Of a stretch of 64,000 nt of DNA, positions 1,492 through 52,374 are shown piece by piece. The stretch's first letter is position 1; the number at the start of each line of letters is the position of its first letter. The notes under the pieces are model-generated. The model saw only the letters and a program-made list of their open reading frames with translations. It was not told the origin of the DNA and searched no databases. This stretch comes from a virus: positions 6,306 to 70,305 of IMG/VR virus record IMGVR_UViG_3300023104_000005; one strand, 5' to 3'. The position numbers and the translations under genes are program-made.

Positions 1492-4045
1492 TTATATGTG
1501 CTTAATGCAAAATGGTTTAGGGTCAACATCTAAATCGGTATTGAGCCACTGTTCTGTTTTTGAATGGCATTTCTGAATCATGCCGTTTCTGAATCTGTAG
1601 ATTTCGTGCTTTGCGCTGTCTTTCATTTTCATGCTGTATCCCGCAAGCATTTCTCTTTCTGTGGCATCTTTGTATCCGGGTCTTTCTCCGTATGGTGTTG
1701 ACTTCTCCACGCTACGCTTGTAATGTTGATAGCATAGCCCTGCTTTGTATTCTTGTTTCTGGCATTGAACTTTGTTTCTTCTACCTAAGGGGCTATAACC
1801 TCCGTGATGCGACTGTAATATCATTTTGGTACACATGGTCGGTTAGATTAAGATATGCTCCACAACAGGCGTTGCAGTTCGTCAGAATGAATACCTAAGA
1901 AGTTAACAGAGATACCAGAGAGAGAAGCAAGTTCTTCAATGGCTTTAGAGTCTTTAACATTGGTAAATAGTATTGCCTGTAGGTCAGGTCTTTTCTCGAA
2001 CGCTCTGGTAAGAGATAGTTTTGTGTTTAGTTCCATTATTTGTGTTTTAGTTTTGTTAATCAATGTCTGCATAGGACATCCAAAAATTGTCTTGATTTAA
2101 ATTGCCATTATTGAATATGTTTATAAAATCATATAATCTAATAATGGTTATGTCGTCTGGATGATAATCATCTGGATCAACAAAGGCACACTTGACAGTA
2201 TCTCTGAGTTCGGCTATGCTCTCATAAGTCCCAATAGTTTCCACTAATTGTAGCGGATCAATTTTTCTTAAGTCCACCAATACGATGTAAGTTTCCATTT
2301 GTTTTAAAAATTAGGGTCGTTAGGATCAATTATCTGGTAATCGCACAGCACGTCTATTAAGACGATATAAGCGCATATAAGGCATATCCACATAGTTAGT
2401 TAGGTTTAAAGTGATAATAGCTATAAAAGACTAAAACGCAGGTTAAAACGGTAATCAGCCATATGACCCATACCATTGATTTGTCTTCGTCAGGTTGTTT
2501 AAGTTCCATATCTATGATTTAAGTGATTCAAGTGTGTAAATAAACCGTTGGTATAATTCCAACTTTGTTGTTTGCCGTTCTAGCATTATCGGATCATTAT
2601 ACATGTGTAGATAGTTTTTCATACTGGCAATGTATCTCTGATACTCTTTAATGATTTCGTCTATTTTATCATTCATGATGTTTAGGTTTAGCAGGGTGTA
2701 ACAATACCTCCATAGAGTTTCTAAGGGCTAAAGAGCCGGATAATATTTTAAGTTGAGGTGGTTTAGGTTGAGATAGGTAAATAGCATTCCATTTGTCCGC
2801 TATCTCTTTGAATGTTGGTTTCTTTCTTAATGCTGTCATGATTGAATTTCTAAAAGTCCCTTTTCATGGAACATGGTTACAAATGTTTGATTATCATATA
2901 TACATGCAATGAACTTAAATACTTTCTCTTTCCCGCTTATAGGGCTGATTATTGGTAATTCAAAAGGTTCAGATGTTATAGTTGAAATTACGCCCTTTGT
3001 ATTCCATGTTCCTGCTAACATAAGTTTAGGCCGTTCAGGATGTGTAAAATTTACTTCGTAGCTGTTGTCTATTGGAGTGTATAGTCTGCCTATTAATGAT
3101 TCTTCCATAATGGTCACTATCGGCAGTGCGATGTCTATTACTGTGTTCATGATCTTGCATTTAATTTATCACTTATCCATTTTGCGAATAAGGCAAAAAG
3201 AAATATAAATACTATAGGAGCAAAGAGCCATATAAATGTCTCTGTATAGTCCTGCTTTAGCTTAATGCGCTCTATTGTTTCTGTGAGTTTCATTTGTTTA
3301 GGGTTTAAGTGATCTTACTATATCGCTTACTCTTTTGTTAGATATTTCAGGCATCACACATGCTAAAAAACCTCTTAGCTTTAATTCTTTGTGATTATTG
3401 GAATTTGATGTGCCATTTATGAACCCAACAGTTTGACGAGTTAATGCCATTCTGTATTCAGGATCGTTCAATAGTCTTACTCTATCTTTCAGTTCCTTGT
3501 GACAATGATCACATAAATCAAAGCATTCATTTCTTTGTGTTTGTCCTTTTGCCCCACATTCGTTGCAATTAAAATCATATGTTTCCATTTTTATTTGTTA
3601 TTTATTTAAATTGACTACTACTGTAAATACCTTCCATTGATCGCACATCACCTTTAGATGAAATGTATCCGCTGAACTCTTTACCTGTTTTGATTTTAAA
3701 CCCAAAGATGTTTTTCTTTGTCATTTTGAAAAAACCAGTCATTGCTCCTGTCATTCTAGCACCTGTTGGAGAGTCTAACCATGTTGGAGCGCATTCACCT
3801 AAGAAGCCCGGAACCGTTGATAAATATGTTTTCATTTATTTTTCCTCCTCAAAGTATTCTAATTTACCAGTGGACATTTTTAGCTTCACATTAAAACTAC
3901 GTGTTTCGGTCTGTATATAGTCCCAACACGATAAAGGCCATATAGTCTCAAACTCTCCAGGTTCTTCGTTGTATCGTTCTTTAAATGCCTTGATTATGGC
4001 ACTTGTTACTTTATCTTTTTGCTTGGTTAAACGTTCTGTTGTCAT
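1492..4045 (-). CDS. Cluster of small early hypothetical genes (1492-1836, 1848-2072, 2056-2298, 2836-3150, 3298-3588 with CxxC pairs, 3602-3835, 3836-4045, plus several under 60 aa)
   Basis: Tightly packed, co-oriented ORFs; no function recognised. Confidence 0.65.
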
Positions 4046-4074
4046 TTGTTTTATGATTTAGTGAATGTTCTATT

Positions 4075-4133
4075 TAAATGTCCTCATACTTTCTAATCCC
4101 GGCTTGGAACGGGCAACGGCGTATTTACATTTA
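4075..4133 (-). ncRNA. Twister ribozyme, type P1
   Basis: UAAAUG UAA AUAC GC CGUUG CCCG UUCCAAGC CGGG AUUAGAAA GUAU GA GGA CAUUUA: P1, P2, P4, both pseudoknots (UCC/GGA, GC/GC) and the conserved UAA, AAGC and GA residues. Confidence 0.88.
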
Positions 4134-4410
4134 TTTTTACTGTTTCATTATTTCAGGCATGACAGATTGTTTCGCGTTCTCTCCATTTCTCTTAGAGATA
4201 CTGTCCATTACAGACGTTTTAACGGCAAACATTTTGATTCGGCTATGTTAATGCATACTTTATGCCTACACAGGAGTTTATAGCCCTCTGTAAGGCTTTA
4301 TTATATTGAATTGGTAGTCTACATCAGATTAAGGTTAAAGTCTCTTAAATCGTCTGTATTGATCCCTGAACAGTTGCAAGCTGTTTCTCCTATGCTAGCA
4401 GGGATTAGTA

Positions 4411-4677
4411 TTAAAGGCTCTCAATTATTCTTTCTGCTGAACCTTGTCCGTTATCACGATTGTATAACCATGTTTCCAGTTCATCGCCTGATAGATCAAT
4501 TTTCATAACCTTGCCATGTAGATAGTCAAAGTAAGTCTGACCGCTATCTAATAATTTTTGCGCCTCTGCTTCGCTCATTGCTCCCGGCTTTGCTTGAAAA
4601 ATACCCATGCCTTGAACTTTTGATCCGTTGTAAAGAGCGGCTAATACTTTTGCTTTTGATAATTTAGAAATGTTCAT
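4411..4677 (-). CDS. Conserved small phage protein of unknown function
   Basis: VLAALYN...YFDYLHGKVMKIDLSGDE...LYNRDNG pattern, which I recall recurring in viral proteins. Confidence 0.75.
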   Translation of the reverse strand: MNISKLSKAKVLAALYNGSKVQGMGIFQAKPGAMSEAEAQKLLDSGQTYFDYLHGKVMKIDLSGDELETWLYNRDNGQGSAERIIESL

Positions 4678-14268: not shown

Positions 14269-14339
14269 GCGAACATAGTATAACGGTAGTACATTGGTCT
14301 CCAAAACCAATAGTCAAGGTTCGAATCCTTGTGGTCGTG
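14269..14339 (+). tRNA. tRNA-Trp(CCA)
   Basis: TTGGT-CTCCAAA-ACCAA anticodon arm; TTCGAAT T loop; one acceptor-stem mismatch; no encoded CCA. Confidence 0.88.
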
Positions 14340-14344
14340 CAAAT

Positions 14345-14417
14345 AGTGCAGTATATCAATTGGCAGATTACCACATTTGGGATGTGGAGGTTCCGGGTTC
14401 GAGTCCCGGTTGCGCTA
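14345..14417 (+). tRNA. tRNA-Pro(TGG)
   Basis: CCACA-TTTGGGA-TGTGG; CCGGG-TTCGAGT-CCCGG. Confidence 0.9.
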
Positions 14418-14423
14418 CAACAC

Positions 14424-14495
14424 TTTCCTATAGTGCAATGGTTAGCACGTCGCATTTTGGTTGCGAAGATTGGAGTTCGAGTCTCTGTGGGAAAA
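14424..14495 (+). tRNA. tRNA-Gln(TTG)
   Basis: TCGCA-TTTTGGT-TGCGA; acceptor stem TTTCCTA/TGGGAAA. Confidence 0.9.
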
Positions 14496-50253: not shown

Positions 50254-52374
50254 ATGGCAATTACTTACAGGAGAGTCAAAGGCTCAAATCTAACACCAGA
50301 CGAGGTTGATGACAACTTCTTGGACTTATCCACAAATAAGGTAGACAAAGTTTCAGGGAAACAGCTTTCCACTGAGGACTACACTAGTACGGAGAAAACA
50401 AAGTTATCAGGCGTAGCTACAGGCGCAACAGCTAATAATACTGATGCTTTCTTGGTCGCAAGAGGGAATCATACCGGGACGGAGAGTGCAGATGTATTAA
50501 CAGATGGTACAACCAATAAAGCATATACAGCTACGGAGAGAACTAAACTTTCTGGTGTTGCATCCGGGGCTACGGCTAATCAGACTGACACATATTTACT
50601 CGATAGAGCAAATCATACAGGTACACAATCTGCCGATACTATTATAAATGGTACAACGAATAAGGTGCTGACAGCATCAGAGAAAACCAATGTAGGTAAT
50701 ATTCCTACTTTAACGGCACAAGTTGCGGCCATCTCACCTACAATTCAAACAGAAACCGCCGCCTACATACAAAGAATCATAGCCGCAGGTTCATCTATTG
50801 ACGCTTTTACCATTAATGCTATAGATGAATTTGTCGTAAGAGGTAAAGCGGAGGGTTGGTATACTTCTATTCTGAACTTTGCACCTATATTAGGTGGTAG
50901 TTTAGCGGGTGCATTAGTTAAATTAGTTACAGAACCGGGGGGAGCATCTTCAATGGTTGCGACAAATTTAGTTGCCGCAGACTATAACCCGCGTTATGGA
51001 TTTAGGATTTTAACCAACTCCTTAGCTATAGGTAAATATGTTAATACTGGTCTTTCTCCTGATGCACTTGGACTTACCACAACTGGTATAGGTTTAGGAT
51101 TATTTGTAACCGAGGATTCCACATCAGCAACGGAATCTTTTATCATGGGTAATAACGGTGTACCCGGATCAACTCCGGCACAGTTTGATAAAATACAAGC
51201 GACTGTGAATTTAGGAAGATTGACTATTTCAAATGTATCTTATAACGTTGCTGTAGGTGGTAACAGAATGCAGTTTATTAATATTAATGGTGCAAATAAT
51301 TTTCAGGGTTATAAAAATGGAATACGAACAAATGATAGCACTGCAACTGCTTTAACTGCAACTGCTTTAACAGAGCCTATTACGCTTTTTAGAGGCATCG
51401 GAGGTAGTGCTTTTGTCTGGGGAGTAGGTTCTATTGGTTCATTTATTCTTACTCAGCCTTTAACTTCTGTTAGAGCATCCCAATTAACAAAGGCGATTTA
51501 TAACCTTTACATTAGGACTGGACGTGTCCAAACTCAAGGTAGCAATATTGAATGGGATGGAGATTCAATTACCGCGGGTCAAGGAGTTACACTACCCTCA
51601 GATAGATTTAGTAATATAGTAACAGCTTATATTGGTGGTAATATGTTTAATTTAGGTATACCATCTGGTAGAACAAATCTTGCCGGAGGAAATAATGCCG
51701 CAGCACCTGTACCTTTAACTCTTACCGCATTAGATGTTGACATACCAATTAACACTAGCATTATAACCATGGGTGTTAACGATGAATTAGCTACAGGTGA
51801 TGTGACTTCGCAAGGATATCAAGCGTCTTTGGAAAGTATTATCCAATATAAAAAAGATAAAGGCCAAAGAGTTATATTAAATTCTCCTACATACTTATCA
51901 AGTGAGACTAGTGGGACTTTAGTAACTCCTTTAGCAAGACAAAGAACATACTTACTTGCCGCTGCTAATGCCGCCGCAAATAAAAGTGTTCCTTTCGTTA
52001 ATCTGTTAGATGCTTTTTTAGATTTAGATAACCCGCTTTCTTATACGACAGATGGAGTTCATTACAACGCAGCCGGACATAAAATTATAGCGGCTAGGAT
52101 TATTGCCGTTTTACAAGGGCAGATATTCAGAACTCCAAAATTAGATTTTCCATCTATCGCCGCAGGGGCCTATTCAGATTTGACAGTTGATTATATGTAT
52201 GGTGCCAGAACAAATATGAATGTAATGGTTGGACAGCCTGTAACACCTGTGGTGGGCTTGACTTATCAAGCTTTTGTGTCAGCGAATGATGTCGTTACAG
52301 TAAGGGCTATCAATAATACGGCATCGGCAATAGATGCGGCTTTACAAGTTTTAAAAATTACAGTAATTTTATAA
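50254..52374 (+). CDS. Tail fibre/spike with an SGNH/GDSL hydrolase domain
   Basis: 48-aa N-terminal repeats; GDSIT, G, GVND and DGVH catalytic blocks. Confidence 0.8.
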   Translation: MAITYRRVKGSNLTPDEVDDNFLDLSTNKVDKVSGKQLSTEDYTSTEKTKLSGVATGATANNTDAFLVARGNHTGTESADVLTDGTTNKAYTATERTKLSGVASGATANQTDTYLLDRANHTGTQSADTIINGTTNKVLTASEKTNVGNIPTLTAQVAAISPTIQTETAAYIQRIIAAGSSIDAFTINAIDEFVVRGKAEGWYTSILNFAPILGGSLAGALVKLVTEPGGASSMVATNLVAADYNPRYGFRILTNSLAIGKYVNTGLSPDALGLTTTGIGLGLFVTEDSTSATESFIMGNNGVPGSTPAQFDKIQATVNLGRLTISNVSYNVAVGGNRMQFININGANNFQGYKNGIRTNDSTATALTATALTEPITLFRGIGGSAFVWGVGSIGSFILTQPLTSVRASQLTKAIYNLYIRTGRVQTQGSNIEWDGDSITAGQGVTLPSDRFSNIVTAYIGGNMFNLGIPSGRTNLAGGNNAAAPVPLTLTALDVDIPINTSIITMGVNDELATGDVTSQGYQASLESIIQYKKDKGQRVILNSPTYLSSETSGTLVTPLARQRTYLLAAANAAANKSVPFVNLLDAFLDLDNPLSYTTDGVHYNAAGHKIIAARIIAVLQGQIFRTPKLDFPSIAAGAYSDLTVDYMYGARTNMNVMVGQPVTPVVGLTYQAFVSANDVVTVRAINNTASAIDAALQVLKITVIL

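What the first reader, a model, noticed from the sequence alone, without database searches (positions are those of the whole stretch)
4075..4133. Twister self-cleaving ribozyme embedded in the early operon
Seen: the minus (sense) strand aligns element by element to the type-P1 twister architecture. It has P1 UAAAUG/CAUUUA, a UAA cleavage loop, P2 AUAC/GUAU, P4 CCCG/CGGG, L4 UUCCAAGC, and pseudoknots UCC/GGA and GC/GC. Predicted cleavage is between 4127 (U) and 4126 (A). It lies 30 nt upstream of the ATG of gene 3836-4045 and 3 nt after a possible 31-aa ORF (4137-4232). Inference: it processes the early polycistronic mRNA and gives downstream genes a 5'-OH, structure-protected end.
Basis: partly seen in the sequence, partly recalled or inferred. 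Interest (0 to 1): 0.75.

Follow-up and report, generated by a model that had tools for sequence, protein, structure and literature searches.

The report
Twister ribozyme in phage gene spacer
A small self-cutting RNA of a well-known class (a twister ribozyme) sits in the one long gap of a block of small phage genes, just before the next gene, where it most likely cuts the phage message; the kind is ordinary, though the whole gap seems to move between phages as a unit.

Summary
Window 4075-4133 (minus strand) is a complete type-P1 twister of the basic form without P3. Rfam RF03160 matches it end to end (38.6 bits; E 4e-07 locally, 7.2e-05 window-wide). That is below the curated cut-off of 67.2, but so are 12 of 12 twister-P1 matches in three other phage loci.

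[quoted passage not shown] In viral relatives the helices covary. T1 is fully complementary in 7 of 7 copies where it was left free.

The host genome is a ~70-kb uncultivated leaf-litter phage that does not use Shine-Dalgarno sites. The ribozyme lies in the only long gap (365 nt) of a leftward block of small genes, 29 nt before a conserved 69-aa gene. Across 86 viral twisters this sense-strand, intergenic, just-before-a-start-codon placement is strongly enriched. Message processing is therefore the best reading, but cleavage and its effect are untested.

New here: DNA contigs from other samples carry the same spacer plus ribozyme between different genes.

The kind is known. This scan has noted phage twisters in at least 560 other genomes, but never this stretch.

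The parts
4075..4133 (-). Complete type-P1 twister ribozyme, basic form without P3 (P1 taken as 6 bp)
   Evidence: Sequence. Rfam RF03160 match 4077-4131, model positions 1-68 of 68, 38.6 bits. The MFE fold gives P1/P2/P4.
4128..4133 (-). P1, 5' strand (UAAAUG)
   Evidence: Pairs with 4075-4080. P1 columns covary in 46 aligned copies; 5 of 5 pairs change on both sides.
4125..4127 (-). UAA cleavage loop; predicted scissile bond between U4127 and A4126
   Evidence: Aligned to the invariant UAA of the Rfam consensus. The U-A cleavage step is described in PMC6154101. Cleavage itself was not tested.
4121..4124 (-). P2, 5' strand (AUAC)
   Evidence: Pairs with GUAU 4086-4089. 4 of 4 P2 pairs change on both sides across copies.
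4119..4120 (-). T2 pseudoknot, 5' strand (GC)
   Evidence: Complementary to GC 4102-4103. Invariant in all 46 aligned copies, but these letters were fixed by my search patterns.
4114..4118 (-). C plus a 4-nt linker (GUUG) that takes the place of the optional P3 stem
   Evidence: P3 positions are deleted in the model alignment. 46 of 86 viral twisters have the same 4-nt linker.
4098..4113 (-). P4 hairpin: CCCG 4113-4110, loop L4 UUCCAAGC 4109-4102, CGGG 4101-4098. L4 carries the T1 5' strand (UCC 4108-4106) and the T2 3' strand (GC 4103-4102).
   Evidence: 3 of 4 P4 pairs change on both sides across copies.
4090..4097 (-). Junction J4/2 (AUUAGAAA), ending in the conserved AAA
   Evidence: The identical junction and P4 occur in L089 and L151 with different P1, P2 and T1.
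4086..4089 (-). P2, 3' strand (GUAU)
4081..4085 (-). GAGGA. G4085-A4084 are invariant; G4085 is the probable catalytic guanine, inferred by position. GGA 4083-4081 is the T1 3' strand.
   Evidence: Aligned to GAGGG of the consensus. 'GA' is invariant in 46 copies, though fixed by my patterns. T1 is complementary in 7 of 7 copies where it was left free. The review speaks of a highly conserved guanine at the bottom of P2 (PMC6154101).
4075..4080 (-). P1, 3' strand (CAUUUA)
3836..4045 (-). Downstream gene, 69 aa, ATG 29 nt after P1; function unknown
   Evidence: ORF. Two homologs at 90% and 69% identity (aligned). No Pfam or PHROG family.
4046..4410 (-). 365-nt spacer that holds the ribozyme at its 3' end. 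It is the only long gap in the gene block and appears to be a portable unit.
   Evidence: The other 11 junctions of the block measure -8 to 57 nt. Contigs of other samples match 4043/4064-4409 at 95-99% identity and are unlike the window beyond both ends.
4233..4247 (-). 15-mer shared exactly with the spacer upstream of the twister in relative G001; role unknown
   Evidence: It occurs once in each genome. The local alignment scores 30 against a shuffle maximum of 27.
4411..4677 (-). Upstream gene, 88 aa, widely shared among related phages; function unknown
   Evidence: 15 viral loci encode a homolog at 50-80% identity. No Pfam or PHROG family.
4137..4232 (-). 31-aa ORF ending 3 nt before P1; probably not a gene
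   Evidence: No PHROG family. G001 has no start codon at the matching place. It is too short for the homology search.

Best explanation
Window 4075-4133 (minus strand) encodes a genuine twister self-cleaving ribozyme. It is type P1, in the basic form without the optional P3 stem.

When the leftward block of small phage genes is transcribed, the RNA should fold into P1-P2-P4 locked by pseudoknots T1 and T2. It should then cut itself between U4127 and A4126. That leaves an upstream piece ending in a 2',3'-cyclic phosphate. The downstream piece begins with a 5'-OH and almost the whole folded ribozyme, 29 nt before the AUG of the 69-aa gene.

The most likely role is to uncouple the downstream cistrons from what lies upstream. 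Those cistrons get a fixed, processed 5' leader.

What is shown and what is inferred:
- Shown: the sequence, the fold elements, the model match, covariation in relatives and the genomic placement.
- Inferred: that cleavage happens, that transcription reads through, and which way expression changes.

My odds are about 0.93 that it is a real twister, and about 0.55-0.6 that its role is cis-processing of an mRNA just upstream of the gene.
For: Model match:
- Full-length RF03160 match, E 4e-07 locally, 7.2e-05 window-wide and 1.8e-8 for the family alone.
- All consensus single-stranded letters are kept. Differences in P2, P4 and T1 are compensated.

Covariation in viral relatives:
- I scanned the viral collection with patterns that fixed only the core letters. 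This gave 99 unique matches.
- Their unconstrained helix positions pair 84% (P1), 93% (P2) and 94% (P4). Shuffled partners give 54%, 74% and 64%, and none of 200 shuffles reached the observed values.
- 86 of 99 form all three helices. 46 of those 86 have the window's 4-nt linker.
- In a 46-copy alignment, 95.8% of cells pair against 26-41% when partners are slid. 15 of 18 pairs change on both sides. 0 of 500 shuffles reach any measure.
- T1 is fully complementary in all 7 copies where it was left free, with five further triplet types.

Context in this phage:
- The leftward block is continuous from about 6850 to the end of the record.
- The ribozyme sits in its only long gap.
- The downstream 69-aa ORF is conserved as protein.
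- Relative G001 has the same layout: a 450-nt gap, then the twister, then 35 nt, then an ATG.

Placement across 86 viral twisters:
- 28 have a same-strand ORF starting 9-48 nt downstream. Random places give a mean of 4.8 and a maximum of 10 in 200 trials. The opposite strand gives 3.
- 38 have a same-strand ORF ending within 100 nt upstream, against 11.8 at random.
- Only 4 lie inside a same-strand ORF, against 35 at random.

Literature: the processing hypothesis for twisters near phage genes is stated in PMC6765202, section 13.
Against: - The score is under Rfam's gathering cut-off (38.6 against 67.2), so the default scan is silent. Twelve of 12 other phage twister-P1 matches are also under it, at 35.6-62.3 bits.
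- No experiment or RNA data bear on cleavage.
- Folding energy alone is unremarkable (z -1.75).
- The MFE fold of the whole 365-nt spacer does not contain the twister fold.
- Only 1 of 10 related phage records scanned whole has a twister. It is therefore dispensable for this phage group.
- Downstream genes of viral twisters share no family: 74 ORFs fall into 62 clusters.
- The sigma-70 scan found no leftward promoter or terminator in the spacer. That scan does not suit a host that lacks Shine-Dalgarno use, so a promoter in the conserved spacer is not excluded.
- A 5'-OH end may lead to decay rather than protection, as the review says for glmS (PMC6765202).
- My covariation sets were gathered with patterns taken from the window's own core, and the alignment was pre-filtered for pairing.
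Confidence: 0.62

Rival explanations
1. Leader trimming rather than operon processing. The conserved 365-nt spacer carries its own promoter, and the twister removes the 5'-triphosphate leader of a transcript that starts inside the spacer.
For: - The spacer is the only long gap in the block.
- Its 276 nt upstream of the ribozyme are 95-99% conserved in contigs with different flanking genes, so they hold something under selection.
- G001 has a similar long gap and shares a 15-mer.
Against: - No promoter-like site on the sense strand of the spacer in the sigma-70 scan. That scan may not suit this host.
- The 15-mer occurs once per genome, so it is not a repeated promoter motif.
- Many viral twisters have a same-strand ORF ending within 100 nt upstream (38 of 86). 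That fits read-through from an upstream gene.
Confidence: 0.2
2. 3'-end maker for a non-coding RNA. The conserved part of the spacer (4134-4409) is a functional RNA, and the twister defines its 3' end with a cyclic phosphate.
For: - Near-identical spacer in other samples next to different genes.
- Cleavage falls at the very 3' edge of the conserved part.
- Earlier notes of this scan describe ribozyme-bounded phage RNAs in other genomes (unchecked leads).
Against: - No Rfam family matches the spacer apart from the twister.
- The fold of the whole spacer is not exceptional (z -1.55; 6 of 100 shuffles fold as well).
- Beyond one 15-mer the spacer is not alignable with G001.
- The few variants seen are too sparse to test for covariation.
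Confidence: 0.08
3. A recombination joint or selfish module. The ribozyme persists mainly because its conserved core lets phages swap gene cassettes at that point, and cleavage matters little for expression.
For: - Other-sample contigs break from the window exactly at the module's edges (4409; 4043 and 4064) and, in two samples, at the cleavage loop (4125).
- The early regions of the 15 relatives share only the 88-aa gene with the window.
- Some phage loci hold dense arrays of twisters.
Against: - Helices and both pseudoknots are kept by compensatory change. That implies selection on the folded RNA, not only on DNA homology.
- The strong sense-strand and pre-start-codon bias implies a role in RNA.
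- The break points come from short, low-depth contigs that I could not read.
Confidence: 0.07
4. A chance look-alike or an inactive relic that no longer cleaves.
For: - The score is below Rfam's cut-off.
- Weak twister-P1 matches at E<=1 occur by chance in 2 of 14 control genomes.
- One such match lies in this window at 50810-50859.
Against: - E 7.2e-05 for the whole window.
- All core letters are intact and T1 is compensated.
- The ribozyme stretch is laid at 95-99% likeness in two other samples: X2 over 4043-4190 and X5 over 4064-4129. Within it only a 1-nt deletion at 4130, in X2, is listed.
- The chance match at 50810 lacks the whole P4/L4 core, unlike this one.
Confidence: 0.03

Closest known systems
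Type-P1 twister ribozyme, basic form without P0/P3/P5 (Oryza sativa Osa-1-4, PDB 4OJI; Rfam RF03160)
   Same: Same helices (P1, P2, P4), same two pseudoknots (T1, T2), same conserved loop letters and same U-A cleavage step. P3 is absent, as in the rice ribozyme. The review says P3 occurs in 78% of annotated twisters (PMC6154101, passages read; model alignment).
   Different: T1 is UCC/GGA instead of the consensus CCC/GGG. P2 is A-U rich. The junction after P4 is longer (AUUAGAAA). The score is under Rfam's cut-off. It is encoded by a phage of an environmental sample, and its activity is untested.
Twister and hammerhead ribozymes near phage genes in bacterial genomes, proposed to process polycistronic mRNAs
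   Same: Sense-strand, intergenic position among small phage genes. The hypothesis that cleavage separates cistrons with different stability or translation is the same as in PMC6765202, section 13. See also PMC8782182 (passages).
   Different: Here the ribozyme is in a free phage genome of a host type that lacks Shine-Dalgarno use. I also measured the placement statistics on 86 viral copies. I did not find such figures in the papers I could read.
[quoted passage not shown]
   Same: A small ribozyme, twister included, directly upstream of a viral ORF, so that the cleaved RNA begins close to the start codon (PMC13725137, abstract and passages).
   Different: Those are eukaryotic RNA viruses. That paper set aside ribozyme hits in DNA bacteriophages as already described. 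Nothing here shows an effect on translation.
glmS ribozyme
   Same: A bacterial self-cleaving RNA in an mRNA leader whose 5'-OH product decides the fate of the message (PMC6765202, section 13).
   Different: glmS needs a metabolite cofactor, has a different fold, and lowers expression through decay of the product. No ligand or regulation is indicated for this twister.

Membership tests
Twister ribozyme, type P1 (Rfam RF03160, clan CL00120) | Statistically significant, full-length match to the family covariance model | tested here: met
   Model positions 1-68 of 68. E 4e-07 on 351 bases, 7.2e-05 on 64 kb against 4227 families, and 1.8e-8 for the family alone.
Twister ribozyme, type P1 (Rfam RF03160, clan CL00120) | Rfam's curated gathering score of 67.2 bits. 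This is an annotation cut-off of a model that includes P3, not a structural feature of the class. | tested here: not met
   The window scores 38.6 bits. The same holds for 12 of 12 twister-P1 matches in phage loci L028, L059 and L089. These include four copies with P3 at 57.7-62.3 bits.
Twister ribozyme, type P1 (Rfam RF03160, clan CL00120) | Helices P1, P2 and P4 in the type-P1 order, with the chain entering and leaving through P1 | tested here: met
   6, 4 and 4 base pairs, read. The MFE fold gives the same helices. They covary in 46 viral copies and in the unfiltered set of 99.
Twister ribozyme, type P1 (Rfam RF03160, clan CL00120) | Double pseudoknot: T1 (L4 with the loop between P2 and P1) and T2 (L4 with the letters after P2) | tested here: met
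   T1 is UCC/GGA and T2 is GC/GC. T1 is complementary in 7 of 7 copies where it was left free, with the types CAC/GUG, CUG/CAG, GGC/GCC, CUC/GAG and CCC/GGG. T2 never varies in my set, which says nothing either way.
Twister ribozyme, type P1 (Rfam RF03160, clan CL00120) | Conserved core letters: UAA at the cleavage loop, GC(C) after P2, AAGC in L4, AAA before P2's 3' strand, and GA before T1's 3' strand | tested here: met
   All are present in the alignment to the consensus.
Twister ribozyme, type P1 (Rfam RF03160, clan CL00120) | Site-specific self-cleavage at the U-A step, giving 2',3'-cyclic phosphate and 5'-OH ends | not testable with these tools
   No RNA run holds the stretch, so nothing could be laid to look for ends. 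This needs a bench assay.
Twister-sister ribozyme | Similar P4 loop, but no twister-type double pseudoknot and different key letters near the cleavage site (PMC6154101) | tested here: not met
   Both pseudoknots are present. Within the clan the best model is twister-P1, and two lower-scoring overlapping clan matches were dropped by the tool.

The most novel reading that the evidence does not exclude
The whole 365-nt spacer, from the stop codon of one gene to the start codon of the next, is a portable expression module with the twister at its 3' end. Leaf-litter phages exchange it independently of the genes beside it. Twisters serve as the joints at which gene cassettes are swapped. Whatever gene lands downstream receives the same self-processed 5' leader, so it is insulated from its new surroundings.
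Probability: 0.3. Interest if true: 0.6.

Novelty: new member of a known kind. Interest (0 to 1): 0.33.

Why it matters
Twisters are well understood chemically, but their biological role in bacteria and phages is still open (PMC6765202, section 13).

This copy adds no new kind of RNA. It and its viral relatives do give three usable points.

- Rfam's twister-P1 cut-off misses it and all 12 other phage twister-P1 matches that I scored. Routine annotation therefore under-counts phage twisters.
- Phage twisters sit on the sense strand, between genes, and often 9-48 nt before a start codon. This holds even in a phage that has no Shine-Dalgarno sites, which makes a test of effects on message stability or translation straightforward.
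- The same spacer plus ribozyme lies next to different genes in other samples. That hints that such ribozymes travel as ready-made gene-junction modules.

Tried and rejected
Relatives and databases
- GenBank phage relatives: no match, near or distant.
- Homologs of the 69-aa protein in viral contigs and in JGI metagenome contigs: none.
- Pfam and PHROGs on the neighbouring small proteins: nothing useful. There were only PHROGs of unknown function and one weak FmdB-like hit at E 0.009.
- Pfam on eight large proteins gave only a GDSL lipase domain in the 706-aa protein.

Other ribozyme candidates
- The second twister-P1 candidate at window 50810-50859 (15.8 bits) is rejected. It lacks the whole P4/L4 core and lies inside a coding ORF.
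- The 12.1-bit partial match in G003 is at chance level (E 0.7).
- Other ribozymes in this genome: none at E<=1 in the window or in the 6.4 kb outside it.

The upstream spacer
- The global alignment of the two spacers (window and G001) misaligned the ribozymes and was not informative.
- Local alignment found only the exact 15-mer.
- A 24-mer of the spacer has no exact match in other viral contigs.
- The 14-mer joined to a twister 5' core found only G001, plus two chance matches inside a coding sequence (L152, L153).

Synteny test of the cassette-joint idea
- It could not be decided with the 15 relatives. Only the 88-aa gene, 1 of the 14 window ORFs tested, is shared (for G001).

Other checks
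- Pattern B (UCU/AGA) mostly hit non-twisters. L137-L139 and L143-L145 fail the helix test.
- The sigma-70 promoter and terminator scan gave fewer sites than shuffles and none on the sense strand of the spacer. It probably does not suit this host.
- No RNA holder is listed for this stretch. The runs laid are DNA contigs, so they say nothing about expression. Parts without cover there are not evidence.
- I did not build a covariance model of my own. My viral set was gathered with patterns taken from the window, so a hit back to the window would be circular.
- Roth et al. 2014 and Weinberg et al. 2015 are not held, and supplements are closed. What they say about P3-less forms, phage contexts or distances to start codons may bear on my novelty statements.
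- Searches for print on twisters in phage genomes. The theta-ribozyme paper does not mention twisters.

Full report
THE OBSERVATION

- P1: UAAAUG (4133-4128) with CAUUUA (4080-4075).
- Cleavage loop: UAA (4127-4125).
- P2: AUAC (4124-4121) with GUAU (4089-4086).
- After P2: GC (4120-4119), then C and a 4-nt linker.
- P4: CCCG (4113-4110) with CGGG (4101-4098).
- Loop L4: UUCCAAGC (4109-4102).
- Junction AUUAGAAA, then GA, then GGA (4083-4081).

UCC of L4 can pair with GGA to form T1. GC of L4 can pair with the GC after P2 to form T2. The minimum-free-energy fold of 4070-4140 is exactly P1/P2/P4, but the energy alone is unremarkable (z -1.75).

IS IT MORE THAN CHANCE?

The default Rfam scan at gathering thresholds reports only three tRNAs. 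With permissive filters the type-P1 twister model RF03160 matches 4077-4131 over all 68 model positions. Only the optional P3 stem is deleted. The score is 38.6 bits.
- E is 4e-07 for the 351 bases searched.
- E is 7.2e-05 for the whole window against all 4227 families.
- E is 1.8e-8 for this family on the genome.

The score is under the curated cut-off of 67.2. That cut-off is not reached by any of 12 twister-P1 matches in three other phage loci. These include four copies that do have P3, at 57.7-62.3 bits, and P3-less copies at 35.6-56.4 bits. The cut-off is therefore simply strict for phage copies.

A second weak match in the window (50810-50859, 15.8 bits) lacks the whole P4/L4 core and lies in a coding ORF. 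It is a chance match.

WHAT THE GENOME IS

The window is bases 6306-70305 of a 70,305-base uncultivated virus record judged 98% complete. It has no GenBank phage relative at the DNA level. DNA runs that hold it come from leaf-litter metagenomes.

Only 4 of 45 ORFs of 100 aa or more have a Shine-Dalgarno-like core upstream, against an 11% background. I did not otherwise test the host.

A leftward block of small genes runs without interruption from about 6850, next to a ~1-kb divergent region, through the ribozyme to the end of the record. None of the neighbours has a Pfam family, and PHROGs add nothing functional.

Gene junctions in the block measure -8 to 57 nt, except for the 365-nt gap that holds the ribozyme. 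The ribozyme ends 29 nt before the ATG of a 69-aa ORF. That ORF is conserved as protein, with two homologs at 90% and 69% identity.

The 31-aa ORF that ends 3 nt before P1 has no support. It has no PHROG family, G001 has no matching start, and it is too short for the homology search.

RELATIVES AND COVARIATION

The upstream 88-aa gene has homologs in 15 viral loci.
- A permissive Rfam scan of 11 of these loci found a twister in one, L003 (40.2 bits).
- Whole-record scans of 10 of the 15 found a significant twister only in that same record, G001.
- The ribozyme is therefore sporadic in this phage group.

The G001 copy differs from the window's in P1, P2, P4 and T1 (UCU/AGA). It keeps pairing everywhere and keeps all core letters.

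To widen the sample I scanned the viral collection with two patterns. They fixed only the single-stranded core letters and left the helices as N.
- I left out the own-genome locus and two duplicates of G001. That left 99 unique matches.
- Their free helix positions pair 84% (P1), 93% (P2) and 94% (P4). Shuffled partners give 54%, 74% and 64%, and none of 200 shuffles reached the observed values.
- 86 of 99 form all three helices. 13 do not, including 6 obvious non-twisters from the second pattern.
- 46 of the 86 have the window's 4-nt linker in place of P3.

I then re-scanned all 149 fetched loci with the T1 triplets left free. This gave 6 further copies, and all 6 have fully complementary T1. 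The types are CAC/GUG, CUG/CAG, GGC/GCC, CUC/GAG and CCC/GGG twice. Random triplets would pair fully about 5% of the time.

A pattern fixing only the window's P4 and junction found two more contexts, L089 and a metagenome contig, L151. Their P2 and T1 differ from the window's but are compensated. That makes 7 of 7 free T1 copies complementary.

A 46-copy alignment gives 95.8% of cells paired, against 26-41% when partners are slid. 15 of 18 pairs change on both sides, and 0 of 500 shuffles reach any measure. That alignment was pre-filtered for pairing, and T2 and most T1 letters were fixed by my patterns. Searches are the unbiased tests.

WHERE PHAGE TWISTERS SIT

I used a crude ORF rule (70 aa or more) on the 86 copies.
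- 28 have a same-strand ORF starting 9-48 nt downstream. Random places in the same loci give a mean of 4.8 and a maximum of 10 in 200 trials. The same places read on the other strand give 3.
- 38 have a same-strand ORF ending within 100 nt upstream, against 11.8 at random.
- Only 4 lie inside a same-strand ORF, against 35 at random.

Downstream genes share no family: 74 ORFs fall into 62 clusters. The window's layout is therefore the typical one, and G001 repeats it with a 450-nt gap, the twister, 35 nt and an ATG.

AN UNEXPECTED FINDING: THE SPACER TRAVELS

I laid the DNA contigs of four other leaf-litter runs on 3700-4500.
- In X2 and X5, identity of 95-99% runs from 4409 to 4043 (X2) or 4064 (X5). 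Position 4409 is 2 nt after the upstream stop codon, and the downstream ATG is at 4045-4043. The contigs then continue as sequence unlike the window on both sides.
- Read by hand, the loose ends past 4043 and 4064 begin different proteins.
- X3 and X4 keep the window's 88-aa gene.
- In X3 and X5 the likeness also breaks at 4125, the end of the UAA loop.
- In X5 about 230 other bases lie there before the window-like ribozyme resumes. That suggests two twisters in tandem.

These are short, low-depth contigs that I could not read in full. The linkage of flanks may be chimeric. The junctions themselves still show the same spacer next to different genes.

The 276 nt upstream of the ribozyme are thus conserved for a reason I cannot name. 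They share an exact 15-mer with G001's spacer, once per genome. They match no Rfam family and fold unremarkably.

HOW IT MOST LIKELY WORKS

The leftward transcript folds into the twister and cuts itself between U4127 and A4126. This releases the downstream cistrons with a 5'-OH and the folded ribozyme as their leader. The fold, the conservation and the placement are shown. Cleavage, read-through and the effect on expression are inferred.

The rivals are:
- trimming of a leader from a promoter inside the spacer;
- making the 3' end of a non-coding RNA;
- a mainly recombinational role;
- an inactive relic.

The direction of any effect is open. The review notes that cleavage of glmS mRNA is followed by degradation by cellular RNases (PMC6765202, section 13).

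COMPARISON WITH WHAT IS KNOWN

The basic P1 form without P0, P3 and P5 is the crystallised rice twister. P3 is present in 78% of annotated twisters, and the cleavage step is U-A (PMC6154101, passages).

Twisters near phage genes and the polycistronic-processing idea are in print (PMC6765202, section 13; PMC8782182, passages). A 2026 paper treats ribozyme hits in DNA bacteriophages as already described (PMC13725137, passages).

This scan holds 851 notes with the words twister, ribozyme and phage, from at least 560 genomes. None is a look-alike of this stretch.

I could not read Roth 2014 or Weinberg 2015, nor any supplements.

VERDICT

This is a real twister and a new member of a known kind, of modest interest. 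The portable-spacer observation is the one part that may be worth following.

Noticed in passing
window 4043-4409 (contigs of runs X2, X3, X5): The same spacer plus twister, at 95-99% identity, lies next to different upstream and downstream genes in other leaf-litter samples. Likeness ends at the stop codon, at the start codon and, in two samples, at the UAA cleavage loop (4125). X5 has about 230 other bases there before a window-like ribozyme resumes.
   Followed up: partly
window 4125, loose end of run X3: The 30 letters that follow the UAA in X3 read, by hand, like the 5' half of another twister. They have the same GUUG linker, P4 UACG/CGUA, and AC...GU in place of the usually invariant GC...GC of pseudoknot T2, which would be a compensated change. 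The 3' half was not visible.
   Followed up: no
window, 8-25 nt upstream of start codons genome-wide: TTAAA begins 8-25 nt before 32 of 82 start codons, peaking at -16 to -14, against a 6% background. Shine-Dalgarno cores are at or below background (4 of 45). It may be a gene-start or gene-junction signal of this phage or host type.
   Followed up: partly
window 4233-4247 and L142 1708-1722: An exact 15-mer, present once per genome, is shared by the spacers upstream of the twisters in the window and in G001. It lies about 105 and 59 nt before the UAA. The rest of the spacers does not align.
   Followed up: partly
L028, L059, L089 (viral contigs): Dense twister arrays. L028 has four copies with P3 in 3.6 kb, each 18-23 nt before an ORF. 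L059 has at least five copies in 2.4 kb. L089 has five in 3.3 kb, including a type-P5 twister over its Rfam cut-off at 54.9 bits.
   Followed up: partly
L026, L056, L057, L059, L067, L023, L074 (viral contigs): In several phages the ribozyme's own conserved GAGGA lies only about 7-12 nt before the start codon. The 3' strand of T1 could therefore double as a Shine-Dalgarno site that the folded ribozyme hides.
   Followed up: no
Rfam RF03160 cut-off, seen on L028, L059, L089 and the window: None of 12 twister-P1 matches in three phage loci, nor the window's copy or G001's, reaches the gathering score of 67.2 bits. Their range is 35.6-62.3 bits. Default Rfam annotation therefore misses them.
   Followed up: yes
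window 14269-14495: Three tRNA genes in a row on the plus strand.
   Followed up: no
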